Below are positions 2,767 to 58,252 of a DNA stretch of 64,000 nucleotides, in pieces; positions within the stretch are counted from its first letter, which is position 1; each line of letters begins with the position of its first letter. The position numbers and the translations under genes were made by a program. The stretch comes from a virus (taxonomy: Duplodnaviria; Caudoviricetes). Under the pieces are notes generated by a model. It made no database searches and was not told where the DNA came from. It was given only the letters and a program-made list of their open reading frames with translations. The stretch is from the IMG/VR virus record IMGVR_UViG_3300031998_000064, positions 5,533 through 69,532 of that record; one strand, written 5' to 3'.

Positions 2767-5700
2767 CTAACGATAGTAAATATATATGTCAGCAGATGAA
2801 GTTACATCAGTATCATTTGCATAAACATTCCCTATTTTTATAATACTTTTAGTCGCTATTAATGATGCACCATACTTTGTTGTACTGGTTAAATATGCGC
2901 CATTTCTGAATCTTTTTTCTGAATCTGTTAAATATATTTTGGGTATATTAAATATAAACATATTATCATTATAATCTATAATAGCGCATATTTCATTATA
3001 TTTTGATGGTAAAGTAATATCAACACTTCCATTTTTAAATGCTAAAGGTTTCCATGATAAAAAATTATCACTAATCAGATTCACCGTTTCACTTAACTGT
3101 TCAACATCCGCATGAGTAGCCAATTCGCCGTTGTGGTAAGCCAACTGAATCTGTGAGCCGTTAGTTGACACATAATTATATCCCGATGAAAGTGCGATTT
3201 CATGCGGGGTTAACTGAATGTAAAATGGAGTGGTCAATGGATAAATAAGTTTTGTTCCTGTCAACGCCGTTTTCAGAGATGCTTCATCCGTGTATCGGCT
3301 ATCTCGAATATAAATATTGGAATTTCTTGCCGATATTTGTGCGTCCGTTCTGTCGCTATCAATATATGCTTTTCCGCTTGTTTCGTAGCACTCACAAAGC
3401 CAATTTAAACTTGCTATACTTGCCGTCATGTCTGAAACGGATGAACTATATCTTTCGTATGTACTATTGTAACTATACGCTAAATCACCCATATCCTTTT
3501 CGCCATGTGTAACCTTAAACTTACCCGTTCTAACATCCAATTCACCATAATACACCGTCTGCCCCAAACTCTCCGATAAATCTGTGGTTTTATGGTATGG
3601 TTCATAGGTGGTAGCACTTGCTGATTCTTCAAGTTGAGTATTTGAAATTTGTGAAGGTGTGATAGTGCTATCATCATTAAATGCTACTCCTATTATGCAA
3701 TAATTTGCATTAGCGGGTGTTGTGATAGTTCTATTATTTCCTGATACATAACCGTCAGCGCTTATGTATGATGGAGAACCATAGGCATTAGTTATAAACC
3801 ATAAAAAAGCAATTTTTAAATTACTACCTGTTACACTGAACGTATACTGTGTACTAGGTTTAACTCTAATAAAATCATTAGACGCTAATCTCCATGTTGA
3901 AGCTTCTGGAACACCATCTGAAAAAGCTCTCTGTACAAAATTTCCATTACAAAGATTCTTCCCACACGATAAAACCTCAATTTTATCATACCCACTGATT
4001 GCCCGTACATTGCTCGGTGACGGTGTTCCACTTCCTGCCTGTATCGGCTCAAAGGTGATTATCGGGTTTTTAGCTATCTGTGCCGATTTGAGGTTTGCGA
4101 TTGATATGGGATTGCCACTTGCACTTGTGGTGGTCATATCACCCGAAATGCCTGAATCTGTGAGGTTGCCGCTAGCATTTAGTCCGGCTATATTTCCATT
4201 CGTAGGTGATGTTACCTTATCAGCTTTTCCGCTAATATCCTGATGTTGTGTCAGATAATCGCTATGCTTATGACCACTATCAACAAGATTTCCGTTTGCA
4301 TCAAGTCCGGCAAAATTACCCGAAGTAGCCGAAGTAACCTTGTCGGCTTTGCCTGTTATATCGGGTATCTGACTTGTAGTAGCGTAGCTGTTAGTATCAA
4401 CACTACCATCGTTCTTCATAAGACCACTTGTAGATGACTTTTGGATATAATTTGACAAATCAACCATACCCGAAAGTAAGTCAAACTTATATGAAGCGTT
4501 GTTCTGCGTACCAACATCCACGATAACTACGTTGTCACCGATTTCTATGGTTTTTCCTGCGCCTTCAACGAAATCACTTGTAGTCACACCGCTATCGGTC
4601 ATGTTGTAAACGTTGCCAAGATTACTTACAATCAGCAAAGCAGGTAACAACTCGGCACAAGTTTTGTTACCAGATGGCTTATAAACACCGCTTATGGCAC
4701 TATCAACGTAATCGTGTACCGCATCCGAAGTAACCAAATCGGATGAACCGTCAACTACAGAATTAACATAATCTTTGGCAGATGCCGTTCCGAGCGTAGG
4801 CTTATTCTTAATAAAATCAACCTTTGTATTATCGCTCTGATTCCAATCGCTTTGAACCTGTGCGTCAGGAATGGTTGGCTTGTCGGAAAGATCATTGTAA
4901 GAACCACTAAAATCAGATTTTCCGTTCCAAGTAGTTTTCTCTGTGTCGGTTACAAGCCTGTGAGTGCTATCATCGTTCAAGTCAGCCAAATCATCAGGAA
5001 TAGTAGGCTTATTAGTCAAATCCTCATAATCACCGCTAAACAAAGCCGTATCATCGGGTAAAGCACCTACATCCTCGGCATCAAGAACAACTACACCTGT
5101 CTTGCCATTTACTGAATCTACGGCACCGCCACCGCTACCACCTTGAATAGCATAGTTAGTACCGTCAATACCTATGCTTGTAAGGCTTGCCGTTGTGTTG
5201 CCGGGATTCGCTACAACACTCGGTATGGTAGGTTTATTTTGAATATAGGCATCTGAATCTGTATCGGTTTCATTCCAATTAGATTGCACGTTTGCCTCGC
5301 CTGCACTCCAAGCTGTTTTTTCAGTATCTGTAACAGTTCTATGTGTTGAATCATCAGATAAATCGGAAAGAGCTGTGGGAATAGTAGGTTTGTTTTTAAT
5401 ATAATCCTTTTTAGTATTATCACTTTGATTCCAATCAGATTGAATTTGTGCGTCCGGTATGGTAGGCTTATTCTTAATATAATCAACCTTACTGTTATCG
5501 CTTTCATTCCAATCTGCTTGCACTTGTGCATCAGGAATCGTAGGTTTATTTGTTAAGTCAGTATACGAACCCGAGAAGTCGCTTTTAGCATTCCAATTTG
5601 CCTTTTCAGTATCTGTTACTAATCTGTGAGTACTGTCATCACTTAAGTCCGCTAAATCATCAGGAATACTTGGCTTATTAGTAAGATCCGTGTACGAGCC

Positions 5701-7236
5701 ACTAAAATCACTCTTAGCATCCCATGTTGATTTTTCCGTGTCTGTAACAAGACGATGTGTACTGTCATCAGATAAATCAGACAAAGCTGAAGGCACATTA
5801 CTTACATCAGCTTTTGCGTCAAGCTGATCTTGTACATTCGACTCTATACCGCCAAGAGTATTAAGTTCTGATACTGTAGCGGTTAGTCCTGTTAATGTAG
5901 TTGCTTCATCAGAAGCATTTACAATACCGTCATTATTAGTATCATAAATCTCTTTTAACATATCGCCAGTAGAAGTTCCGCCACCTCCACCTGACGAATT
6001 GATCGTAACTTTCTTGTTAACTGTATCGGGAACAAGCGTTACGTTAGTTCCGGCAACAAGTTCAAGAACATCTTCACCACTTGCCGTTATTTCAGTACTT
6101 GCAATTTTGATTTTCTTATAGGCATCACTAACTGTACCGCCACTTTCATTTGCGTTTTCAAACTTTTGTGTAGTAGAGTTATACTTTAATATCTGACCAT
6201 TCTGAATATTGCTGATACTGATATCATCTAAATCAGTTAGCTCATCAGGTATACTTGGCTTATCTGTAAGGTCATTATATGATCCACTAAAATTAGACTT
6301 ACCATTCCACGTAGACTTCTCCGAATCGGATACAGTTCTATGCCCCGAATCACTTTGAAGATCTGCAAGGTTAGGCTTATTAGTCAAATCAGCATAAGAT
6401 CCACTAAAATCTGACTTCCCATTCCATGCTGTCTTCTCAACATCGGTTACAAGACGATGAGTTGAATCATCATTTAAATCTGCTAAATCATCCGGTATAT
6501 CGGGTTTATTAGTTAGGTCATTATAATTACCGCTAAACAACGATGGTTTGTTTTTAATATAACTACCATCTGTAGGATCTGTAGTATTCCAGTCTGCTTG
6601 AACATTCTCTGCAGGATTATTCCAACGTTCTTTATCTGCATCAGTTACAAGCCTATGTGTAGAATCGTCTTGAAGGTCTGCCAAATCCGTAGGTACTGAG
6701 CTTTGTGTAGCAAACAGATTGTCAGCCTCAGTTTTTGAATATGTCTCCGTTTTAGAATAATAATTCGCAACCAAATGATCTATAGTTTCATATCCTATAT
6801 CATCATAAAGTTGCGAAAACTTTGTTGGTATATCAATACCTAATTGAGCCGTAGTTTTATTACCTTCAAGTGTCACACCATTAATTTGAGGTTTATTAAC
6901 TAATTGCCCATATTCATTGATGCCAACTTGTTTAACTATAAACTTATCGTCAGCATAGTTTACATTATATAATCTTACCCATTCACCATCTTCAATTCCG
7001 ACAATCTGTCCGACATAAGTATCGGTATTAAGATTAAGATTATATTCAGCTACTACAACACTTGGATACACATCAAGCCTACACTTCATTCTTATTAAAG
7101 ACTTATCCTCTTTAATAAAGACAACTTCATGTGTATCCTTGGTATATACGGTGTCATAGGCGTTTAGTTTCCCGCTTTCAAGTCTGTCAGCTATATCGGC
7201 AAAATTCATATAGCCCGGTTTATTTCTGTCAGCCAT
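2767..7236 (-). CDS. Large repeat-rich tail fibre / minor structural protein (1489 aa)
   Basis: 7 copies of DLxDDSTHRxVxDxEKxxW(xxKSxFSGxYxDLxxKP), 5 copies of VQxDWNxxDxxxxxYIxNKP, 2 copies of GKADKVTSxxxGNxAGLxxxGNLxDSG, a GDMLKEIYDTNNDG motif and a beta-rich C-terminus. Located in the tail region. Confidence 0.7.
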   Translation of the reverse strand: MADRNKPGYMNFADIADRLESGKLNAYDTVYTKDTHEVVFIKEDKSLIRMKCRLDVYPSVVVAEYNLNLNTDTYVGQIVGIEDGEWVRLYNVNYADDKFIVKQVGINEYGQLVNKPQINGVTLEGNKTTAQLGIDIPTKFSQLYDDIGYETIDHLVANYYSKTETYSKTEADNLFATQSSVPTDLADLQDDSTHRLVTDADKERWNNPAENVQADWNTTDPTDGSYIKNKPSLFSGNYNDLTNKPDIPDDLADLNDDSTHRLVTDVEKTAWNGKSDFSGSYADLTNKPNLADLQSDSGHRTVSDSEKSTWNGKSNFSGSYNDLTDKPSIPDELTDLDDISISNIQNGQILKYNSTTQKFENANESGGTVSDAYKKIKIASTEITASGEDVLELVAGTNVTLVPDTVNKKVTINSSGGGGGTSTGDMLKEIYDTNNDGIVNASDEATTLTGLTATVSELNTLGGIESNVQDQLDAKADVSNVPSALSDLSDDSTHRLVTDTEKSTWDAKSDFSGSYTDLTNKPSIPDDLADLSDDSTHRLVTDTEKANWNAKSDFSGSYTDLTNKPTIPDAQVQADWNESDNSKVDYIKNKPTIPDAQIQSDWNQSDNTKKDYIKNKPTIPTALSDLSDDSTHRTVTDTEKTAWSAGEANVQSNWNETDTDSDAYIQNKPTIPSVVANPGNTTASLTSIGIDGTNYAIQGGSGGGAVDSVNGKTGVVVLDAEDVGALPDDTALFSGDYEDLTNKPTIPDDLADLNDDSTHRLVTDTEKTTWNGKSDFSGSYNDLSDKPTIPDAQVQSDWNQSDNTKVDFIKNKPTLGTASAKDYVNSVVDGSSDLVTSDAVHDYVDSAISGVYKPSGNKTCAELLPALLIVSNLGNVYNMTDSGVTTSDFVEGAGKTIEIGDNVVIVDVGTQNNASYKFDLLSGMVDLSNYIQKSSTSGLMKNDGSVDTNSYATTSQIPDITGKADKVTSATSGNFAGLDANGNLVDSGHKHSDYLTQHQDISGKADKVTSPTNGNIAGLNASGNLTDSGISGDMTTTSASGNPISIANLKSAQIAKNPIITFEPIQAGSGTPSPSNVRAISGYDKIEVLSCGKNLCNGNFVQRAFSDGVPEASTWRLASNDFIRVKPSTQYTFSVTGSNLKIAFLWFITNAYGSPSYISADGYVSGNNRTITTPANANYCIIGVAFNDDSTITPSQISNTQLEESASATTYEPYHKTTDLSESLGQTVYYGELDVRTGKFKVTHGEKDMGDLAYSYNSTYERYSSSVSDMTASIASLNWLCECYETSGKAYIDSDRTDAQISARNSNIYIRDSRYTDEASLKTALTGTKLIYPLTTPFYIQLTPHEIALSSGYNYVSTNGSQIQLAYHNGELATHADVEQLSETVNLISDNFLSWKPLAFKNGSVDITLPSKYNEICAIIDYNDNMFIFNIPKIYLTDSEKRFRNGAYLTSTTKYGASLIATKSIIKIGNVYANDTDVTSSADIYIYYR

Positions 7237-7809: not shown

Positions 7810-8863
7810 GACATAATACCATTGCCCTCATCTCGTCAACTTCTCGTATAGTTCCCTTTGTGTAATATTCTCCGGTTACTATATCCCAATAATCTTCAAT
7901 TACTTTTATCTTAACAATCTGTGGTTTAAATAAAGGTTTAGCAACCTTAACAGGATCGCCTAACTTTTCAAACCATTGATTTAGTATATCCTCTTTATCT
8001 TCAGACCACTTGACCTTAGGAATCCTGTTATATATTTTTTGTATATCAATACCTTTCATATCAAGCGGTACTTTATAACCCAAAACTCCATCCTTAATGT
8101 AATCAAAGCCCGGAATATCTGTTACAATGACAGGAGTTCCAACTGATAAAGCTTCTCTTACCGCAAGACATAAAGCTTCCGTATCGCTTAATTGTACAAG
8201 ATAATCAGCATCAGCTATCCAATCAATAACATCATAACAAGGTTTCATTACAATAACTTCGGGATATTCTACACTTAAATCAAATTTATCATTGGTAAAT
8301 ATTTTCCAATCAAACTTAATATTCGCCTCCCTTAAAAGAGCCATAAGTTGATATATTCGGTTCTTACCCTTTTCGATAGACAAACGTGTAGCTGATACCA
8401 AATGTAATACTTTATTTGGCTTAAAATCTGGTTGAAGTGTTCCCTCAATCACATCACATTTACACTTAAATAAATCAGCAAACGAATCTCTTGCAAACTT
8501 ATTGATACATATAAACTCATGCCCGATATGGAAACTTGGTTTCACATTTGCTATTCTCATATAATCCTTATAATCACAATGTATGATTGAATATGTTTTC
8601 TTGGCCTTAATATTCTGAGGATAATCAACCCAAGAAGCCGTGTTATTTACGGCAACATCACACACATATTCTTTCTTAGGATCAAGCTTTTCTAAATGTG
8701 CATACGGAAATAAATGAGCCGCCTGATCCGTATCTATTTCTTCATAAAGGACAGTAATATCATAATAGTCCCTCAACGAATAACAAAAATTATAAAGAAA
8801 GGTTTCAACTCCACCAATCTTATATATCTTTCTGTGAAATAATATTATTTTTTTCTGTTTCAT
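7766..8863 (-). CDS. Glycosyltransferase (GT-B/GT4-like)
   Basis: N-terminal IGGVETFLYN, SATRLSIEKG, and ADYLVQLSDTEALCLAVREALSVGTPVIVTD (EX7E-like signature). Confidence 0.85.
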   Translation of the reverse strand: MKQKKIILFHRKIYKIGGVETFLYNFCYSLRDYYDITVLYEEIDTDQAAHLFPYAHLEKLDPKKEYVCDVAVNNTASWVDYPQNIKAKKTYSIIHCDYKDYMRIANVKPSFHIGHEFICINKFARDSFADLFKCKCDVIEGTLQPDFKPNKVLHLVSATRLSIEKGKNRIYQLMALLREANIKFDWKIFTNDKFDLSVEYPEVIVMKPCYDVIDWIADADYLVQLSDTEALCLAVREALSVGTPVIVTDIPGFDYIKDGVLGYKVPLDMKGIDIQKIYNRIPKVKWSEDKEDILNQWFEKLGDPVKVAKPLFKPQIVKIKVIEDYWDIVTGEYYTKGTIREVDEMRAMVLCHATIERPQLAERIN

Positions 8864-9962
8864 CCTTTTTATCCTCGTTAATCCATAAAACTCTTAAAAC
8901 TGCCTCAACAGTATCATCTATATCTTTTATTGTTACGTTTTTAGATAATGAAAATCTCACAGCATTACGAGCCGTTTCTTCTGTATATCCCATTGCTAAC
9001 ACAACGTGTGACGGCTCTGCTTTAGCACAAGCTGATCCCGCAGACGCCATAATCCCAAATTCATTAAGCTTTGCTACCATTGGTCTATCAAATGACATAT
9101 AAACATTATTAGGCAATCGCTTTTGTGTAGAGCCAAGTATCCGACCATAAGGTTGAAGTCGATGCATAAGCATATCCCTCATATCTTTCATTTTTGTATT
9201 ATCTCTATCAAGGGTTTCAAAAGCTGTCTTAAGACAAGCAATTCCTAACACGTTTTCTGTCCCACCAACTAATCCTTGTTCTCCGAATATCACAGGATCA
9301 ATCTCAATACCATGCTTAATATATAAAAGACCTGTCCCCTTGATACATCCGATTTTCTGACCGGACATACTAAATGCATCAACATAAGACAAGTCGATAG
9401 GATAGTAAGGTATATATTGAGTTACATCACTATGATAAATACCGCCATATATGTGAACAAGTTTACTTATCGTGACATAATCCTGAATAACACCACACTC
9501 ACCGTTAGCCATTTGAATAGAGCATAAAAATTCTCTTTCATCTTTTTTCATTTGCCAACATATATTCTCAAGTGCACCCTCACAAATTGTTCCATCTTGA
9601 TATACAGGAATTTTATATACCTCTCGCCCATGAGCCTTAAGATAGTCAGCAAGTAGCAAAATATCTTTATGTTCAATTTCTGACACCACAAGAGCGGCAT
9701 TAGGATGCTTATTCATATAACCTTGTATAAATATGTTATTACTCATAGTGGCTCCAGACGTAAACAAAATTTCATCGTCTTTATCCGCACCAAGTAACTG
9801 TCTTATAGACTCCCTCGCACCAACCACAACTTTAAATGCCTCACGTCCATATGTGTGAATAGAAGAGGGATTACCATAAGTAAACAGCATATCGCTTAAT
9901 GTTTTTATAACATCAGGAGAAGGACAAGTTGACGCAGCATTATCAAGATATACCATCATCAA
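8820..9962 (-). CDS. iscS: Cysteine desulfurase (IscS/NifS family, PLP-dependent)
   Basis: YLDNAAST, GNPSSIH, FTSGAT, MANGECG, SGQKIG (PLP lysine; Q in place of the usual H), GGTENV and SAGSAC (catalytic Cys). Confidence 0.9.
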   Translation of the reverse strand: MMMVYLDNAASTCPSPDVIKTLSDMLFTYGNPSSIHTYGREAFKVVVGARESIRQLLGADKDDEILFTSGATMSNNIFIQGYMNKHPNAALVVSEIEHKDILLLADYLKAHGREVYKIPVYQDGTICEGALENICWQMKKDEREFLCSIQMANGECGVIQDYVTISKLVHIYGGIYHSDVTQYIPYYPIDLSYVDAFSMSGQKIGCIKGTGLLYIKHGIEIDPVIFGEQGLVGGTENVLGIACLKTAFETLDRDNTKMKDMRDMLMHRLQPYGRILGSTQKRLPNNVYMSFDRPMVAKLNEFGIMASAGSACAKAEPSHVVLAMGYTEETARNAVRFSLSKNVTIKDIDDTVEAVLRVLWINEDKKDETEKNNIISQKDI

Positions 9963-11686: not shown

Positions 11687-12498
11687 TAGTAATCGCCCTC
11701 CCATTTAAAGCCAAGTTTTGTTGCGGTATTTTTACCGATAATACCATCAGCTTTTAAACCGTTATCTGTTTGAAATCCCTTAGTAGCGGACTCTGTTTTA
11801 GATCCAAATACACCATCAATACTGCCGGGATTATAACCCTTGTCAGCTAAAAGTATTTGAGCATCTTCAACATCATCACCACGCATGTAAGGATTAGCAA
11901 GATATAAATCTCTCTTAAGTATAGGCTTGGACGGTTCAGGTGAAGGAGAGTCTGAATACCAATCAGGACGAGCCGCATAGCCCCAACCTCTTTCGGCAAT
12001 AACTGTCTTAACTACTCCAACATCATGATTTTTAGACTCAACTGCATACTTATTATCAATTGCATATCCAATATGCCATTTATTATCTGAACTACCCATA
12101 AACAGATAATCGCCTGCTTTAACATCACTTAAAGCAATCTTTTTACCATGTGCCTCTGTTTCTTTAGTGCCAACTATATATTTCCATATTCCGTTAGCGT
12201 TTGTATCTGACTTTAGAAGATTATGAGAGAGCAAGAAGGCTATACCAAGGCCGGAACAATCTTCTCCATGAATGTCAAAAATATTAACACCATTCTTTAA
12301 TCTTTTTTGTAAAAGAGTTAATACTCGGTCAGTATTATCAAGAGCTGCTTTATCCGTATGATCATCTTTTTCCATGTTACAGAGTTTCGGCATTTGTTCT
12401 ATGAATAATTCACCATTGCCGCCCCAAACATAAAGGTCGATCCCTACACGGCTCTCAAGATAATCAAGCCATTCTTTAAGAGTTACTGTCTTTGCCAT
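11686..12498 (-). CDS. Endolysin: NlpC/P60-like catalytic domain + peptidoglycan-binding domain
   Basis: YVWGGNG...DCSGL...HIGY catalytic motifs; C-terminal RGDDVEDAQILL...GYNPGSIDGVFGSKTESATKGFQ...DGIIG (PG_binding_1). Confidence 0.85.
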   Translation of the reverse strand: MAKTVTLKEWLDYLESRVGIDLYVWGGNGELFIEQMPKLCNMEKDDHTDKAALDNTDRVLTLLQKRLKNGVNIFDIHGEDCSGLGIAFLLSHNLLKSDTNANGIWKYIVGTKETEAHGKKIALSDVKAGDYLFMGSSDNKWHIGYAIDNKYAVESKNHDVGVVKTVIAERGWGYAARPDWYSDSPSPEPSKPILKRDLYLANPYMRGDDVEDAQILLADKGYNPGSIDGVFGSKTESATKGFQTDNGLKADGIIGKNTATKLGFKWEGDY

Positions 12499-33567: not shown

Positions 33568-35194
33568 TTAATTTATCTGTTGTACAAAACAATCAAGAAA
33601 TGCTTGAGGATTAACCTCATACAGTGTTTTTAAAAGTATTGGTTTGTTAATATCTAACTTTGTTTTACTGTTCTTTGTTTGTTCCGGAATACGAAATGCT
33701 CTATTTATAAGCCAATACATTAGTCCCGAATAATTTTTTGTAATGCCAGTTCTCCTGATATCCTTTACTAATTCATCAAAATTGTTCATCAATAAAATAC
33801 ATCTATCACTAAACCACATATCATATTGATTTTTTTGTGTTATTTCAAATTCATTTAAATCAATCGCATATTTTTCAATCAGCTTTTCTATTTTTTCGCT
33901 GCGTCTACGAGTCTCTTTGTTTTCACAAGGCTTTAGAAATTGCTCGATGGGTATTGTAGCAATTCCGCTTTTATATTTATTCAACTTAAGTTCTGACATA
34001 TAATTCATAGGACATCTTAAGTTAGAATTTATTTTTTTCTCTAAACGCTCTCGATTTTCTTTTTTACGTTTTTTCATTTGTTCGATTGATCTATTTTTTC
34101 TTGTATCTTTTTTAACCACTTTCCAAAAGAGTGGCAGTCCATTTTGATTAATATCAAGCTGAGACTTTATATATCGGATCTCATTTGGTATATCCAACTC
34201 AAACTTTTTCTTCGCACTATCTATTGCAATCTGAGCAACTGTCGCTAAGATACATACAGCATCTTGATATTTTATATCATCAAAGTTGTAAGTATATGTC
34301 AGAGCTATCTGTGCAAGGTTTGAAGATTCACCAATAGATAATTGTGATGATGCAAGAATATTATCTACTGTAGCAAAATCTTTCGGGACATTATTATATT
34401 TATTCTTTTCTTTAGGTATCAGATTAACAATTGTCGGATACTCTTTGTAACATTTTCTTGCATGTTCAACTATATCAGGCTGATTAGTAGTATAGAACTG
34501 GTCGCTATCTTGATCGCTGCCATTTGATCTTTCCTGCATACAAGTATGAATCATATTTACGGCAATACATAATCTACCAAATTTGAAATATCTATCAAAA
34601 TATGGATGATAGTGATTATGCAAAAAATCCAAGTTGTTACGACTGTTGAATGGTGATCTGAATGATGCAAGAAATTCTTTATCCCTAAACTTTTCACACC
34701 AACATTGTATCGCATTTTCTTCAACGTTAAATGTTTCATCTTTTTCGATATCCTCACCTACCGCATGAAGCAACATGGCGTATGGCGAACCAACTATCGT
34801 TAAATTATCCGCATTTTGAATTACTTCACCTGACTTAAAAACATTAACGTATGATTCTATAATTTTTCTTCGCCTGTCCCTAAAGTAAGAACTATAAACA
34901 AAATCCGGATTATGCTCCGCAAGTGCAATAAGTACATCATAATCGTTTGCAAAGTTTACATTCTTCCTTAGGTATTCAAGAAACACCCGATTATCTTTTT
35001 TCAGCTTGTCTATATATATAACGCTTCTTGCCGTCACCTCTGGCATTGTATCTAAATCGAGAGCGTTAATCATTTGGTATGACATCCTCTGTACATCACC
35101 CAACTTACTTTCGTGTGTTGTTTTAACGATGCCCCATTTATTGTGGTTCTTACGTACCCATGATGCCCAATAATCAAAAGTAATGTTAAAATTG
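33568..35194 (-). CDS. YonO-like single-subunit RNA polymerase, exon 2
   Basis: The frame extends upstream of the ORF-track start to the predicted 3' splice site. Contains FRSPFN and GSDQDSD (DxDGD-type metal site) and AQIAIDSAKK. Confidence 0.75.
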
Positions 35195-36055
35195 CATTTA
35201 TTATCCTAAAGGCTCTTTATCCTTTAGTTCTTATGATTTCTCATAAGATTAGACTATATCATCACCTTCGGCATTATCCGTTCAGGTGTCGGATTTCGTG
35301 GATGGATTATTGCTTGACTGCTCACCATCTAGTCGTTGAACCTTCTGAATTACTTTAATGTCTTTCATTCAGAGTGGTATATGGTTAGCATAGAAAATAA
35401 TTAACAAAATTCAAAATGATAGCCTTTAACAAACTGTTTGTTTCCATGACAGCATGATGATATTGCTGAAATTGGAATATTATATTTTTCAGATGCTTCT
35501 TTTTGACTATTTAATGTTTCAATAAAATTCATAAATTTGTCAAAAATATTAATAGGTTTCATTAATTTTTTAGCTCGTTTCCATTGTAAATCATTATATG
35601 TGACATTATTATACTGATTAGTACACCATTCAAGATTATCCATATGATTGTTTGTACTATCCTCATCTTTATGATTTACTTGTGGCAAATTATCAGGATT
35701 TGGTATGAACGCTTTAGCAACAAGTCTAGCAACTAAACAACGTTGTATATGTTTTGGATTGCTTAATGTAACCATTATTTGTAAATAATTATTACGATGT
35801 TTATTATATTGTTTTTGAAGTTTTAGTATTTTACCCGGTTTAAATTGCCATTTCCCTGTCGAATCTAATATTCTTCTATCTAAACTTCTTACTCGTCCAT
35901 ACGAAGATACTTCATATCCATCAAATCCATCAATTGGCTTCCAAATTTCATCTGAATTATAATTATCATTTTGCTCCATATTATTTTCCTTAGCCTTCCA
36001 CTATTAACCCGATGTTTTTAATTAATCATTTCTGATTAACTGGCCCAATTTGTTA
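35195..36055 (-). mobile_element. Group I intron (861 nt) carrying an HNH endonuclease
   Basis: Core motifs TTCAACGACTAGA and GATGATATAGTCTAA, and a P9 hairpin CTAAAGG/CCTTTAG. P1: exon UGGCU pairs with intron GGCCA with a U-G at the splice site. P10: AAATTG/CAATTT. Terminal G present. Splicing restores the frame MKWL/NFNITFDYW. Confidence 0.85.
35401..35979 (-). CDS. Intron-encoded NUMOD4-HNH homing endonuclease
   Basis: [20 protein letters not shown] (NUMOD4), [31 protein letters not shown] (HNH) and a C-terminal IENR1-like motif. Confidence 0.9.
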
Positions 36056-37002
36056 AGCCACTTCATCACACTTTCCGTACATATCAGCTTGATATCCTTA
36101 ACCTTAACATCCCTGCCAAACATATCCTTAACCGTTGCCGTATCATAATCGGTCTCAAACCTCTCACGCATAAACAATTCAATATTGGTATTGAACGCTG
36201 CACACTTGGTCATGTGGTTTCTAAGCAGGACATATCCATCGGCCCAATCGGGGAAGATGCTTGAATCAATCAAAGCTTGACCGTCAAATATACAATTTTT
36301 CAGTTGGTATGCATCCCTCTTTTTAGCAACACAGTGCTTGTCGGCATCCAACTCGATCGTTACCGCAGGAGCCGTCATGTACGAATCGACATCCTTAAGC
36401 ACAAGTACTTGGTCAGGATCAATCTCAATCGTTCCAACCATACCCGATGTAATGAGAGATTGGTATGCTCCAAGCTGAATTATCGGAGCATTCTTATCGG
36501 GAAGCTTTATATTCATAGTCAAAAATTCATGTGCCTTATCATAAAGCGAATCTCGGATGAACATACACGTTCCTTTTTTGGCCTTGCCCGGAGTCCTATA
36601 TAACATTTTATAATGGATCTCAGTATCCTTATATTTGACTGTCACTCCGTCTTCGTAAAAGATTTCTCTCAAGCGTTCCTTTTTTATCTCGATACATTTA
36701 TCTTTGTTTTTTTCGATATTGTCAAGGATCTCCGTAGCCTTATCCTCAGCATATATCTTGGGTATCTTCTCCGTTAGTTCTTTATACCCCTTGGTTTTAT
36801 ATGAGAATGCAAGACATATTATATCTCTTGAACTCCCGTCTTTGCGAACTTCCATGCCTGATTCGACCAAGAAATCTTTAAATAGGCTGTTCGACAGCAT
36901 CGCCGTTTCCGTATCGGGATATTGCCTAAAACCCCAATAACATTCATACAAGCTCGCAGCTTCATAGTTTTTTATCTTTATTCCGTATTTAGACATCATC
37001 AA
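36056..37002 (-). CDS. YonO-like single-subunit RNA polymerase, exon 1
   Basis: YKMLYRTPGKAKKG, IFDGQALID and LLRNHMTKCAAF. 947 nt (315 codons + 2 nt) joins exon 2 in frame to give about 857 aa. Confidence 0.75.
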
Positions 37003-38547: not shown

Positions 38548-38593
38548 GCGTTGTAAACCGGGATACGTGAGGTTCGACTCCTCACACAACGCT
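38548..38593 (+). ncRNA. Mini tRNA-like element (acceptor stem + T-arm)
   Basis: GCGTTGT-AAACCGGGATAC-GTGAGG-TTCGACT-CCTCAC-ACAACGC: perfect 7 bp and 6 bp stems with a canonical T-loop. Confidence 0.65.
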
Positions 38594-38637
38594 TTAAGAG
38601 TTACCGCTTGAGCTTTAGAGCGGATCATACACGGGTT

Positions 38638-38690
38638 ACCGTTCAGCCTTAAACGGTCAAGGGCTTGCAATTCCCGGTTGAAAATTGCAC
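38638..38690 (+). ncRNA. Structured element, possible pseudoknot (related copy at 44379)
   Basis: ACCG...CCTT/AAGG...TGCAATT...CGGTTGAAAATTGCAC. Confidence 0.3.
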
Positions 38691-38694
38691 ATTA

Positions 38695-39300
38695 TCACGG
38701 ATAGCTTAACGACAGTGCGACCAAGTAGGTTGTCGTTGAAAGCGCAACACGAAATTCGATTGTAACGGCGTGATTAGGTAGGCAAACATATAGTATGATA
38801 AACCGACATACGACTTAGACCTGCCAATCAAATCCGAGCCGTGTGAAAGGGGTGTGAATAGTTGCGTGAGTAGACCAAACAGACCGTGTACTCCACATAA
38901 GCGGTACACACGTTGGTAGCGGTTGGTTCCAAATTCAAGGTGTTCGTTTAGTGAACGGCACTCAAGATATGGGTAAGAGGCACGGATGAAGTCGGACGGG
39001 CGAGTGCAGGTGATAATGGTATCGCAGTAACAGGCTTCAAGCATCTGTCACTAAAAGATGTGTGATAGTCCTTGCGAGCAAGAAAGTGGTGTCGCGAGGA
39101 AAGGTCATATGGTGTGTTACGAAATAAAGTTATTGCGAGATAAACACGAAAGGGCGATTGGCTAAACCCAAGTAGTCATAAGGTCATCAAGTGCGGATGC
39201 GAATGGTTGAAAGGTGAGCGAGAGTGCAGGTTCGAAAGCCCTTACCAACGCACTGTAAGATTTGATTAGTTGTCAGCGTTAGCGTAAGTATCATCCGTTA
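38695..39300 (+). ncRNA. Large structured ncRNA, ROOL-like (about 600 nt; ends approximate)
   Basis: No credible ORF. Many hairpins (AACGACA/TGTCGTT, GTATG/CATAC, GTGTAC/GTACAC, CATCT/AGATG, TTATT-GCGA-GATAA). 5'/3' closing pairings (38697-38715 with 39270-39297). The blocks ACAGTGC..GTTGTCGTT, ATAAGCGGTACACACGTTGGTAG and AGCCCTTACCAA resemble ROOL RNA sequences as I recall them (not computed). Confidence 0.65.
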
Positions 39301-39468
39301 ACAATAAAAGTTACCGGATAAACGCTTGCAATAACGGTGGGAATTGTGATATGATTATAGTGTGCGTTCGGGAGTGCGTTCCCTATCCTCGATACTGGGC
39401 ATTACGATTACTGATGATAACACGATTCCACTCGGCACAACCCCCGAGCTAACAGTGGTCGTATTTAT

Positions 39469-39559
39469 AGGCGATAGTAGTGGACGGGCATAGGCTTTTA
39501 ATGCTTATGTGATAGGCTTAACCTATCTTAACTATCGGGTTCGAGTCCCGAATCGCCTG
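39469..39559 (+). tRNA. Degenerate tRNA / tRNA mimic with Lys-type anticodon loop CTTTTAA, no D-stem and a long extra arm
   Basis: Acceptor AGGCGAT/ATCGCCT; T-arm TCGGG-TTCGAGT-CCCGA; stem GCATAGGC/GCTTATGT; extra arm GATAGG/CCTATC; no encoded CCA. Confidence 0.55.
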
Positions 39560-56506: not shown

Positions 56507-57163
56507 ATGGGACAGAGATCACAGATTTATGTAAGGTGGAATGAAAGAAATGGTGATATGTATTTAGTACCACGGTATTATCAATGGAATTACGGTACCC
56601 GAATGATAAGTCGAGCAAGAGGTATTATCGAGTGGCTTAAAGGTAGCGGAACATATCTTGATTGCGGAAATGAAGAAAAGTTACGCAGAATAATGGATAT
56701 CAACTTTGATTACAAGGATGTTGTTCTTGGACATGACATTATCAAGGAATGGAAAGAATATTGTAATGGTTTAGATTTTAATGATACAGTTTTCTTCGGT
56801 CAGGACAACAATGATGGTAAGCTCTTAATCGATATGCATATTGATTGGGGAGAGAACGAAGAAAAGATAACATTTAAGTATGCATTTCTTACATATGAAG
56901 ATGATTCTCCGGTTATGAACGGAGATGAATATATGCAATGGGATGAGGGCGGTTATGAAGATACCGAGTATAAAGTTTGGCGTGATAATCCGTATCTTAA
57001 AAAAGAAATTAAGTATACCGAACGAAATATTAAATGGATTGACAAACACGCAAAGCTGATGACGGCAGAAGAAGTTAAGAGATTTACAAGTTATAATTAT
57101 GCGGCTGATATGGGATTATTGATTGAGATACCATTCACGTCAACCACCCCGACCTACGGCTAA
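56507..57163 (+). CDS. Hypothetical protein (MGQRSQIY family); C-terminus altered by element insertion
   Basis: The last codons (STTPTYG*) are read from the inserted element; the reconstructed empty site gives ...EIPFTVY*. Confidence 0.75.
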   Translation: MGQRSQIYVRWNERNGDMYLVPRYYQWNYGTRMISRARGIIEWLKGSGTYLDCGNEEKLRRIMDINFDYKDVVLGHDIIKEWKEYCNGLDFNDTVFFGQDNNDGKLLIDMHIDWGENEEKITFKYAFLTYEDDSPVMNGDEYMQWDEGGYEDTEYKVWRDNPYLKKEIKYTERNIKWIDKHAKLMTAEEVKRFTSYNYAADMGLLIEIPFTSTTPTYG

Positions 57164-57481
57164 TGCCTTAGTGGTCGGAGTTTGCAAAAGCTCAGATTGA
57201 CTACTCTAAGTTCTTCAAGAACTACGTTATTTGTGTTATCACACCTATGGATGATTCCCAAGTCCGTAGCAACTGTGGAGGCTCTGTAAACAGTTCTGTT
57301 GGGTAGGAACGGTCAACCTCAAGTGACCGATTACGGCAAGCACTTATAACATTGAGGAAGGGAAACAAACTTTCATAAGAAAGGGAAGCCACTTGCGAGT
57401 AGGCTTTAAAGGTAACAATAGGAACGCCGTATAACCGTAATTCATCCTATCACCTGTAGAGGTGGGGGATTTCTTGCTCAC
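57139..57481 (+). mobile_element. Non-autonomous IS200/IS605-type (IscB-family) element: HEARO/omegaRNA plus end hairpin, iscB deleted
   Basis: Starts GTCAACCACCCC...ATTGAC. Contains CTAAG..CTACGTT, ACACC..GGATG..TCCC.AGTCC..GCAACTG, CTCTGTAAACAG, GGGTAGGAAC and AACATTGAGGAAGGGA. Ends AATTCATCC..CACCT-GTAG-AGGTGGGGGATTTCTTGC. TCACG at both junctions. Confidence 0.85.
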
Positions 57482-57489
57482 GGTATATT

Positions 57490-57519
57490 AAAGGAGATGT
57501 GTAATGCATCTCCTTTTTT
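57490..57519 (+). terminator. Intrinsic terminator (original terminator of the 56507 gene)
   Basis: AAAGGAGATG-TGTAATG-CATCTCCTTT followed by TTT. Confidence 0.75.
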
Positions 57520-57550
57520 ATTACAAAAATTTAAAAGGAGATTAAAACTT

Positions 57551-58252
57551 ATGGGAAAAGCATTTTGGAAGAAAGAAACAGTACGGAAACACGCAAAGCA
57601 GTTAAAGGCAAGGCGAGATGAGTTACTGAAGATTGTTAAAGAACTTCATGTAAAGCTTCAGCAGGGCAACGAAAAGACAGGTAAGTTATGTTGGACAATA
57701 TCACTCTTGCCGATTGTTGATTGTCCTTACTGTTCGGAATGTATGTATGAATGTTATGACTTGAGAAATGATTGTTACATAGAAACTGTCAGAAGCGACA
57801 GATGTAAGAACTCAGCAATCCATAAGGCAGATCCCGAACGCTTTTGGAATGAGGTTGATGCAGAAGTTAAAAGAAATTTTGCAACGCAGCTCCGTATCAA
57901 TGTTGGCGGTGACTTAGCTGATGATGATTTTGCTTATGTAGCAGAGCTTGGAAGACGTAACCCTAAAACGATGATCTTATTCTTCACTAAAAATTATAAA
58001 GGGATTAATGCTTTCCTTGACTCTCAAGCGTTTCCTGATAACGTAAGACCGATTATGAGTTGCTGGCAGGGAATGGAAATGGAGAATCCTCACGAACTTC
58101 CTTGTAGTCATGTTCTTTATGAGGACGGAAGAACAACGGCTCCATCTTTTGGTGGGTATTATTGCAAAGGCAACTGTACAAGGTGTGCGTTCTTTGAGGA
58201 AGGTTGTTGGAAACTAAAGAAAAATGAACACGTTATATTCCATGTACATTGA
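57551..58252 (+). CDS. gp88-like protein (radical-SAM-like, Cys-rich)
   Basis: GNEKTG...SLLPIVDCPYCSECMYECY; LRINVGGD; FFTK; CKGNCTRC...C. Confidence 0.65.
   Translation: MGKAFWKKETVRKHAKQLKARRDELLKIVKELHVKLQQGNEKTGKLCWTISLLPIVDCPYCSECMYECYDLRNDCYIETVRSDRCKNSAIHKADPERFWNEVDAEVKRNFATQLRINVGGDLADDDFAYVAELGRRNPKTMILFFTKNYKGINAFLDSQAFPDNVRPIMSCWQGMEMENPHELPCSHVLYEDGRTTAPSFGGYYCKGNCTRCAFFEEGCWKLKKNEHVIFHVH

What the first reader, a model, noticed from the sequence alone, without database searches (positions are those of the whole stretch)
57139..57481. Orphan omegaRNA/HEARO element lacking IscB, inserted at the 3' end of a phage gene
Seen: a 343 bp element with the hallmark HEARO/omegaRNA blocks from GTCAAC onward and an IS200/IS605-type terminal hairpin, with only about 40 bp where iscB should be (a possible remnant ...AGGAACGCCGTATAA). 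TCACG occurs at both junctions. Removing the element restores TTC ACG GTA TAT TAA (…FTVY-stop) immediately before a terminator, which pinpoints the insertion. Established: IscB omegaRNAs take their guide from the 5' flank and direct cutting of the empty allele; TnpA moves such elements without target duplication. Inference: this is a non-autonomous RNA-guide cassette whose guide (…GATTGAGATACCATTCAC) would program an IscB supplied in trans against sibling phages lacking the insert. The insertion is nearly silent because it changes only the last few residues of the host protein.
Basis: partly seen in the sequence, partly recalled or inferred. Interest (0 to 1): 0.75.

Follow-up and report, generated by a model that had tools for sequence, protein, structure and literature searches.

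The report
IscB-less guide-RNA mini-transposon in phage
A rumen-type phage carries a 349-base leftover of an IscB (Cas9-ancestor) jumping gene that has lost its nuclease gene but kept a complete guide RNA and both transposon ends; this is a well-documented example of a kind of element already described, not a new system.

Summary
Rfam HEARO (the IscB omegaRNA) matches 57139-57370 full length at 115.8 bits against a cut-off of 83. It is the only copy in the 69.5-kb virus record, which has no HNH, RRXRR or Y1-transposase gene.

The element is 57139-57487 (349 nt), not 343 nt. It sits directly 5' of a TTAAA target (57488-57492). Seven related phage loci show the empty site, and all eight closest relatives of the host protein end …PFT-stop (one …PFN-stop), never …FTVY-stop. 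The TCACG "repeat" is a coincidence. The insertion adds seven residues (STTPTYG) to the host protein.

A full-length parent form exists in a Lachnospiraceae genome (L043) and about 20 metagenome or phage sites. It has the same omegaRNA (87-95% identity), a 427-aa IscB and the same left end. The window copy lost about 1.27 kb, from just before the iscB start codon to its last five codons.

At least seven independent iscB deletions occur in this lineage, and all keep the whole omegaRNA. One 329-nt form sits at three or more sites.

The window omegaRNA has no broken base pair, but its left-end hairpin is weakened. Activity would need IscB and TnpA supplied in trans, which is untested.

This is a known kind (PATE-like elements carrying omegaRNAs, Meers 2023), and this scan has found it before on other phage DNA.

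The parts
56507..57163 (+). Host phage gene (218 aa as it now reads). The native protein ends at Thr codon 57137-57139. The last 7 codons plus the stop (57140-57163, STTPTYG-stop) are read from the omegaRNA's first stem.
   Evidence: ORF list. No Pfam or PHROG family. 820 homologues, and the 8 closest end …PFT/PFN-stop. Synteny PcfJ-DUF932-small ORF-gene-GP88 in L010-L013.
57119..57138 (+). Guide-equivalent flank: the 20 nt directly 5' of the scaffold, which a read-through transcript would carry as the omegaRNA guide.
   Evidence: In the alignment of 25 omegaRNAs, conservation starts exactly at G57139 and the upstream 20 nt are unrelated between sites. The same 20 nt are present unchanged in empty-site locus L010. 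The last 18 nt carry 1-3 mismatches in L011-L013.
57139..57487 (+). The whole element, 349 nt: right end with omegaRNA, iscB remnant, left end. It is read here in omegaRNA orientation; the transposase's 'top strand' is the window's minus strand.
   Evidence: Empty-site comparison. TTAAA at fixed spacing in 113 of 137 sites with this left end. Alignment to the full-length element in L043.
57139..57419 (+). omegaRNA scaffold. The Rfam HEARO part is 57139-57370. Two further conserved hairpins follow, up to about 57419.
   Evidence: 115.8 bits. RNAalifold on 25 homologues gives 78 pairs, 25 with compensatory changes. The window has 0 of 78 pairs broken. All 7 paired-column differences from the nearest IscB-bearing copy (L148) keep the pair.
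57146..57181 (-). Right-end subterminal hairpin of the transposon, which is the first stem-loop of the omegaRNA on the other strand. About 8 nt separate it from the right-end tip at 57139.
   Evidence: DNA fold of the minus strand gives -11.1 kcal/mol, z -1.8. Position at the transposon right end as described by Meers 2023.
57420..57434 (+). Remnant of iscB: the last four codons plus stop (RNAV-stop). The deletion junction lies between 57419 and 57420. This stretch overlaps the inner part of the left end.
   Evidence: Alignment with L043, where the 427-aa IscB ends …IRNAV-stop at the same place. L148 and L149 show the native sequence up to the start codon.
57444..57470 (-). Left-end imperfect hairpin. 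Two stem positions are changed (C to T on the plus strand), which weakens it.
   Evidence: family of left ends. 97 of 116 copies have the canonical arm and the window variant is unique. DNA fold gives -7.1 kcal/mol (z -1.2) against -13.1 (z -2.8) in L043.
57488..57492 (+). Target site and predicted TAM, TTAAA (TTTAA on the transposase's strand). It is native phage DNA and contains the host gene's original TAA stop.
   Evidence: 113 of 137 distinct insertion sites. Empty alleles read AC+TTAA… in seven relatives, and L177 reads exactly AC+TTAAAG.
57490..57522 (+). Intrinsic terminator of the host gene (12-pair stem and T run). It now lies just 3' of the element, so the omegaRNA sits inside the gene's transcription unit.
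   Evidence: The same hairpin follows the stop codon in the empty-site loci L010-L013.
57551..58252 (+). Downstream gene (Pfam GP88). Not part of the element; it marks the conserved right-hand neighbour.
   Evidence: Same neighbour in L010-L013 and L176-L178.

Best explanation
The 349 nt at 57139-57487 are an internally deleted, non-autonomous IscB-type IS200/IS605 element (the 'ISC' group).

Shown:
- It keeps the transposon right end, which doubles as the 5' end of a complete omegaRNA, and it keeps the left end.
- It has lost about 1.27 kb holding iscB, from a few bases before the start codon to the fifth-last codon.
- It lies directly 5' (in omegaRNA orientation) of the family's TTAAA target, with no target duplication. 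That target overlapped the stop codon of a phage gene, so the gene now runs seven codons into the omegaRNA.

Inferred:
- The RNA is made as the 3' part of the host gene's transcript, because it lies between the coding sequence and the gene's terminator. It therefore carries the upstream phage sequence as its guide.
- If an IscB of the same lineage is present in the cell, it would load this RNA and cut genomes that carry the uninterrupted site next to TTAA(A). Possible sources are another element in the unseen half of this phage, a co-infecting phage, or the Lachnospiraceae-type host.
- Repair from an element-bearing copy would then restore or spread the element, as in homing.
- Movement to new sites would need a Y1 TnpA in trans.

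Odds: I put identity and origin at about 0.95. I put the chance that this particular copy is still used in trans at about 0.5. The confidence given (0.6) is for the whole statement, including possible trans use.
For: - Rfam HEARO hit, full length.
- No HNH, RRXRR or Y1_Tnp in the record.
- Full-length parent in L043: HEARO 125 bits, a 427-aa RRXRR+HNH protein, the same left end and a TTAAA target.
- About 20 further IscB-bearing sites, including phages G002 and G003.
- Empty-site alleles and …PFT-stop C-termini in relatives.
- TTAAA at 113 of 137 sites with this left end.
- omegaRNA covariation, with no broken pair in the window copy.
- IscB-less sister forms score as well as full-length ones on the HEARO model: 128-134 against 119-141 bits.
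- The 329-nt form lies at three or more different sites, in L143, L156 (the same site as L166 copy a) and L166 copy b. So protein-less forms of this lineage do move.
- The terminator sits just downstream.
- The architecture matches published descriptions. Kapitonov 2016 (PMC4810608) reports termini shared with antisense TnpB elements and insertion 5' of the target. Meers 2023 reports HEARO bounded by the right end and PATE elements carrying omegaRNAs that need the nuclease in trans.
Against: - No IscB or TnpA is seen in the 69.5 kb held. The record is only about 44% complete, so this is uninformative either way.
- This exact 349-nt allele was found only once; its deletion-junction sequence is absent from IMG/VR.
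- The left-end hairpin has two weakening substitutions that no other of 116 copies has.
- The window's HEARO score is the lowest of the lineage (115.8).
- The window minus the element is 4 nt (one TTAA) shorter than the four closest empty alleles. In those siblings the guide match is therefore followed by TTAAT rather than TTAAA. The exact reconstructed allele is seen only in a more distant relative, L177.
- Expression, processing and IscB binding are untested.
Confidence: 0.6

Rival explanations
1. Same origin, but the copy is now an inert relic. A one-off deletion removed iscB, and the element neither moves nor guides anything. It persists only because it does little harm at the very end of the host gene.
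For: Only one copy of this allele is known. The left-end hairpin is weakened by two unique substitutions. The record has no IscB or TnpA. Its HEARO score is the lowest in the lineage. Other members are clearly dead ends: L161 lost one hairpin arm and L145 lost the whole left-end hairpin.
Against: None of 78 pairs is broken, and all paired-column differences from L148, L157 and L043 keep the pair. This would also be seen if the deletion is very recent. Protein-less sister forms persist, score as well as full forms and have moved.
Confidence: 0.3
2. The phage has domesticated the cassette as a weapon or regulator. The omegaRNA is kept by selection on the phage, for example to exclude sibling phages that lack the insert by using a host or helper IscB, or to modulate the 3' end of the host gene's mRNA. 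On this reading it is not merely a selfish hitch-hiker.
For: It sits inside an expressed unit upstream of the terminator. Sibling phages carry matching targets. Loss of iscB with retention of the whole omegaRNA recurs in phage contexts: L158, L166 and L154.
Against: None of the seven related phage loci examined carries it, so it is not conserved in the phage lineage. The same pattern is expected for a selfish non-autonomous element. There is no evidence for any benefit to the phage.
Confidence: 0.08
3. Chance resemblance or assembly artefact: the HEARO-like stretch is not a real insertion.
For: None beyond the record being a metagenome assembly.
Against: E 3e-23 against a curated model. 87-95% identity to about 30 independent copies from other samples. 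Clean junctions against seven empty sites.
Confidence: 0.01

Closest known systems
Protein-less, PATE-like derivatives of IS200/IS605 elements that still encode an omegaRNA (Meers et al. 2023, bioRxiv 10.1101/2023.03.14.532601: ISGst families of Geobacillus stearothermophilus)
   Same: Both transposon ends are kept, there is no protein gene, and the omegaRNA is retained and would have to be used by a nuclease encoded elsewhere. Mobilisation would be by TnpA in trans. The HEARO RNA is bounded by the right end.
   Different: This one is on a phage and belongs to a compact (427-aa) IscB lineage of rumen and gut Firmicutes. It is inserted in the stop codon of a phage gene. The paper's remark on PATEs names TnpB as the trans partner. 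No activity was tested here.
ISC transposons (Kapitonov et al. 2016, PMC4810608)
   Same: Termini are shared with IS605-type elements that encode TnpB on the opposite strand. There are subterminal hairpins, no terminal inverted repeats and no target duplication. Insertion is 5' of a short specific target when read in IscB orientation. All of this is seen here.
   Different: ISC elements as defined encode IscB, and this copy does not. The target here is TTAAA rather than the GTGG, GTRA and ATGA types listed in that paper.
HEARO RNA, Rfam RF02033 (the IscB omegaRNA); solved complexes of OgeuIscB (7utn, 7xht), HfmIscB (9k2z) and TbaIscB (9k30)
   Same: Full-length match to the covariance model. 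The IscB of the full-length sister element matches these solved IscBs at E 1e-37 to 1e-32.
   Different: No adjacent HNH ORF. The lineage's omegaRNA extends about 50 nt beyond the Rfam model with two extra covarying hairpins, as Meers 2023 noted for their IscB RNAs.
Free-standing and intron-borne homing endonucleases of T-even phages (marker exclusion); 'transposon non-restorative homing' as set out in PMC13565253
   Same: The proposed outcome is the same: the allele lacking the insert in a co-infecting relative is cut and converted.
   Different: Recognition would be by an RNA guide, and the nuclease is not encoded by the element. This is purely inferential here.

Membership tests
HEARO RNA / IscB omegaRNA (RF02033) | Scores above the family's gathering cut-off over the whole model | tested here: met
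   115.8 bits against 83, model positions 1-211 of 211
HEARO RNA / IscB omegaRNA (RF02033) | Conserved secondary structure supported by covariation | tested here: met
   25 lineage members: 78 pairs, 25 with compensatory changes. The window has 0 broken pairs
HEARO RNA / IscB omegaRNA (RF02033) | Lies directly upstream of an HNH/RuvC (IscB) ORF | tested here: not met
   No HNH or RRXRR in the record. The ORF is present at the homologous position in L043, L148, L170 and others
HEARO RNA / IscB omegaRNA (RF02033) | 5' end coincides with the transposon end, so the guide comes from the flank | tested here: met
   Conservation starts at G57139 and the flanks are unrelated between sites. Empty sites break at the same base
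HEARO RNA / IscB omegaRNA (RF02033) | Binds IscB and directs DNA cleavage | not testable with these tools
   Needs biochemistry
IS200/IS605 family, ISC group | Subterminal imperfect hairpins at both ends, no terminal inverted repeats | tested here: met
   Hairpins at 57146-57181 and 57444-57470. The left-end hairpin is weakened in this copy
IS200/IS605 family, ISC group | Insertion next to a specific 4-5-nt target without target-site duplication | tested here: met
   TTAAA at 113 of 137 sites. No duplication relative to the empty alleles
IS200/IS605 family, ISC group | Encodes IscB (ISC) or TnpA (autonomous forms) | tested here: not met
   Neither is in the element or in the record. It is therefore filed as a deletion derivative, not as an ISC proper
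PATE/MITE-like non-autonomous derivative | Both ends retained, no protein-coding capacity | tested here: met
   349 nt, with only ORFs of 56 aa or fewer and no support for them. The ends align to the full-length element
PATE/MITE-like non-autonomous derivative | The protein-less form itself is mobile (several copies at different sites) | tested here: inconclusive
   This 349-nt allele is seen once, and its junction is absent from IMG/VR. The sister 329-nt allele with one shared deletion junction is at three or more different sites

The most novel reading that the evidence does not exclude
Near-exact loss of iscB with retention of the whole omegaRNA has happened at least seven times independently in this one lineage (9 of 29 resolvable sites), several times on phages. 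This may be a selected strategy rather than decay. On that reading, guide-only 'hyperparasites' ride on phages and use IscB made by co-infecting phages or the host to cut sibling genomes that lack them. That would amount to RNA-guided marker exclusion between phages at almost no coding cost.
Probability: 0.2. Interest if true: 0.65.

Novelty: new member of a known kind. Interest (0 to 1): 0.35.

Why it matters
This is a base-exact natural example with four things in hand: the filled site, several empty sites, the full-length parent with its nuclease, and a series of independent nuclease-less derivatives. That makes one question directly testable: do guide-only elements exploit IscB in trans, and can they bias inheritance between co-infecting phages? 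The lineage also offers a compact 427-aa IscB with a predicted TTAAA TAM. It does not reveal a new mechanism.

Tried and rejected
It is contradicted by eight protein C-termini and seven empty loci.
- TCACG as a target duplication is rejected. The right-hand copy is conserved left-end sequence.
- Deletion-junction 20-mer in IMG/VR: 0 hits.
- A generic HEARO pattern with fixed spacing: 0 hits in IMG/VR. The pattern was probably too rigid.
- Two lineage patterns gave 0 hits in genome contigs and IMG/VR. They used variants (CCTATGG, GTCC) that later proved rare, so they say nothing about absence. The invariant 22-mer then found 34 metagenome loci and 2 IMG/VR loci.
- blastn of the region against the INPHARED phages found only the left end in MT835474.
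- Pfam and PHROGs gave nothing for the host gene.
So I could not look for IscB or TnpA elsewhere on the contigs of L156, L161 and L166. The 139.8-kb relative (L010) was not searched beyond the 6.6-kb locus.
- Idea that the TTAAA target generally coincides with a stop codon: it holds only for the window and L043, 2 of 18 sites, so I dropped it as a rule.
- Microhomology at the deletion junction: a 4-nt match is possible, but the junction does not fit exactly. I left this as unproven.

Full report
**What is there.** The window is bases 5533-69532 of a 69.5-kb IMG/VR virus record that CheckV rates about 44% complete. A scan of the whole window against Rfam gives one match above a gathering score: HEARO (RF02033), the IscB omegaRNA. 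It lies at 57139-57370 on the plus strand, scores 115.8 bits against a cut-off of 83, and covers model positions 1-211 of 211. It is the only copy in the record. The record has no HNH domain, no RRXRR domain and no Y1 transposase. The HNH and Y1 searches rang in the control genomes; the RRXRR search did not. So 'omegaRNA without iscB' is correct for the DNA held, but more than half of the phage genome is unseen.

**Surroundings.** The RNA starts inside the last codons of a 218-aa ORF (56507-57163) with no Pfam or PHROG family. It is followed by a 12-pair intrinsic terminator at 57490-57516 and then a GP88-family gene (57551-58252). Upstream lie PcfJ and DUF932 genes.

**The right-hand end and the true boundary.**
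- The last 70 nt or so match the tnpA-proximal end of a tnpA-tnpB IS605 element in the human-gut phage MT835474.
- They also match six IMG/VR contigs and more than 120 places in bacterial genomes. Nearly all of these are rumen or gut Firmicutes such as Butyrivibrio, Lachnospira, Eubacterium, Ruminococcus and Sharpea.
- In those elements tnpB runs antisense to the window's omegaRNA. This is the arrangement Kapitonov et al. described for ISC and IS605B pairs (PMC4810608). [quoted passage not shown] The window's right-hand end is therefore the left end (LE) read backwards.
- Across 137 distinct sites with this LE core, 113 have TTAAA exactly 10-14 nt after …TTGCT.
- The element therefore runs to 57487. 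TTAAA at 57488-57492 is the native target, which is the predicted TAM for IscB.

**Empty sites.**
- The host protein has 820 relatives. The eight closest (64-92% identity) all end …PFT-stop, one …PFN-stop.
- Seven syntenic loci from other samples carry the uninterrupted site. The four closest read …CAC + TTAA + TTAAAGG, followed by the same terminator.
- The window minus 57139-57487 reads …CAC + TTAAAGG, giving TTC ACT TAA (…PFT-stop). That is one TTAA shorter than the four closest alleles. A more distant relative (L177) has exactly AC + TTAAAG, and this short stretch varies among relatives.
The TCACG 'repeat' is a coincidence between the host's …TTCAC plus the RNA's first G on the left and conserved LE sequence on the right.
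- The insertion replaces the stop codon and adds seven residues (STTPTYG) read from the RNA's first stem. The threonine codon changes silently.

**The parent element.**
- Among the bacterial loci that share the LE, one carries an omegaRNA 88% identical to the window's over 277 nt. This is L043, an uncultured Lachnospiraceae genome.
- That omegaRNA scores 125 bits on HEARO. A 427-aa RRXRR+HNH protein follows it, distantly related to the solved IscBs.
- The protein ends …RNAV-stop inside the same LE, next to TTAAA.
- Alignment shows that the window copy is this element minus about 1.27 kb. The deletion runs from just before the start codon to the fifth-last codon (L148 and L149 give the native bases up to the ATG).

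**The lineage.** An invariant 22-mer of the RNA finds 34 metagenome loci and two more IMG/VR phages.
- About 20 distinct sites carry IscB (79-95% identical to that of L043).
- One of these is a 96%-complete 112-kb phage (G003, the L157/L170 contig). It shares proteins with the window and has no TnpA.
- TnpA is present in other phages with this LE.
- Nine of 29 resolvable sites lack IscB, through at least seven different deletions:

| Form | Where | What is left |
|---|---|---|
| 349 nt | the window | last five codons of iscB |
| 329 nt | three or more flanks: L143, L156 (same site as L166 copy a), L166 copy b | no iscB sequence; whole LE kept |
| 300 nt | L161 | deletion cuts into the LE hairpin |
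| about 385 nt | L158 | last 17 or so codons of iscB |
| about 460-470 nt | L154 | ATG plus three codons fused to the last 37 or so codons |
| about 410-428 nt | L142 | variant LE |
| length not measured | L145 | no LE hairpin at all |

- Every one of these forms keeps the omegaRNA to within a few bases of the iscB start.
- Their HEARO scores (128-134 bits) equal those of full-length copies (119-141 bits).
- L158 shares structural proteins with the window, and L166 has Sak4 and DnaB PHROGs. Several short forms therefore sit on phages.
- The 329-nt form has one shared junction at different sites. This shows that a protein-less form of this lineage has moved.

**State of the window copy.**
- RNAalifold on 25 members gives 78 pairs, 25 of them with compensatory changes. 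These include two hairpins beyond the Rfam model.
- The window RNA breaks none of the 78 pairs.
- Against the nearest IscB-bearing copy (L148, 94.7% identity) it differs at 15 positions. Seven are in paired columns, and all seven keep the pair.
- The LE hairpin has two C-to-T stem changes that no other of 116 copies carries. It folds at -7.1 kcal/mol against -13.1 in L043.
- The guide RNA therefore looks usable, but mobility by TnpA is doubtful.

**Mechanism.** Shown: origin, boundaries, target, loss of iscB, an intact RNA fold, and a position inside the host gene's transcription unit. Inferred from the published behaviour of IS200/IS605 OMEGA systems:
- The host gene's transcript supplies guide plus scaffold.
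- An IscB made elsewhere would cut the uninterrupted allele next to TTAA(A).
- Recombination with a filled copy would restore or spread the element.
- Sibling phages carry the 18-nt guide match with 0-3 mismatches. In the four closest, the TAM position reads TTAAT rather than TTAAA.

**Novelty.** Protein-less IS200/IS605 derivatives that carry omegaRNAs and depend on a nuclease in trans are described (Meers 2023). Homing into co-infecting phages is discussed as a possibility (PMC13565253). This scan has already reported several IscB-less omegaRNA mini-elements on other phage DNA. One of its notes describes the intact IscB element whose flank I met as L169. This is a new, well-resolved member of a known kind. 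The recurrence of near-exact iscB loss in one lineage is the only feature that might repay further work.

Noticed in passing
L166 (metagenome contig Ga0326514_10000045), minus-strand copies at about 5630-5960 and at the locus end near 12000-12220: Two copies of the 329-nt IscB-less element lie about 6 kb apart on one phage-like contig (Sak4-like and DnaB-like PHROG hits). They have different right flanks.
   Followed up: partly
L154:5349-5915 and 8650-9397: A full-length ROOL RNA (Rfam RF03087, 252 bits) lies about 60 nt upstream of another IscB-less omegaRNA element. A seven-tRNA array follows about 2.5 kb downstream.
   Followed up: no
L145 (oriented), just after the omegaRNA: The omegaRNA plus the first three iscB codons is fused directly to the last two bases of the left end and the TTAAA target. 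This deletion removed the nuclease gene and the whole left-end hairpin, leaving a stranded guide RNA.
   Followed up: partly
L164 (contig of 136.7 kb): The IscB reading frame is split at about codon 128 into two overlapping tblastn pieces in different frames. This is probably a frameshifted iscB.
   Followed up: no
L003 = MT835474.1 64188-72258 (human-gut phage): An unannotated tnpA (135 aa, Y1_Tnp) plus tnpB (384 aa) IS605 element, whose left end is 84.5% identical to the end of the window's element.
   Followed up: partly
window 1-64000: The Rfam gathering-threshold scan of the whole window returned only HEARO: no ROOL, no tRNA and no group I intron. The PF01844 HNH search of the whole record found nothing. 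Earlier first-reader notes on this window propose a ROOL-like RNA at 38548-39559 and an HNH-carrying group I intron at 33568-37002. Neither has support from these two searches, though weaker or divergent matches were not looked for.
   Followed up: no
L010:4907-5842: The closest long relative (139.8-kb contig) carries a DNA methylase gene two genes downstream of GP88. The window and L011-L013 have other small ORFs at that position.
   Followed up: no
L043:3144-4385 (minus strand): In the Lachnospiraceae genome the full IscB element is also inserted in the TAA stop of a gene (cytidylyltransferase plus HD domain, 413 aa), in the same frame relative to the RNA as in the window. Both host proteins therefore end at the same stop inside the RNA's first loop. 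Only 2 of 18 sites show this.
   Followed up: yes
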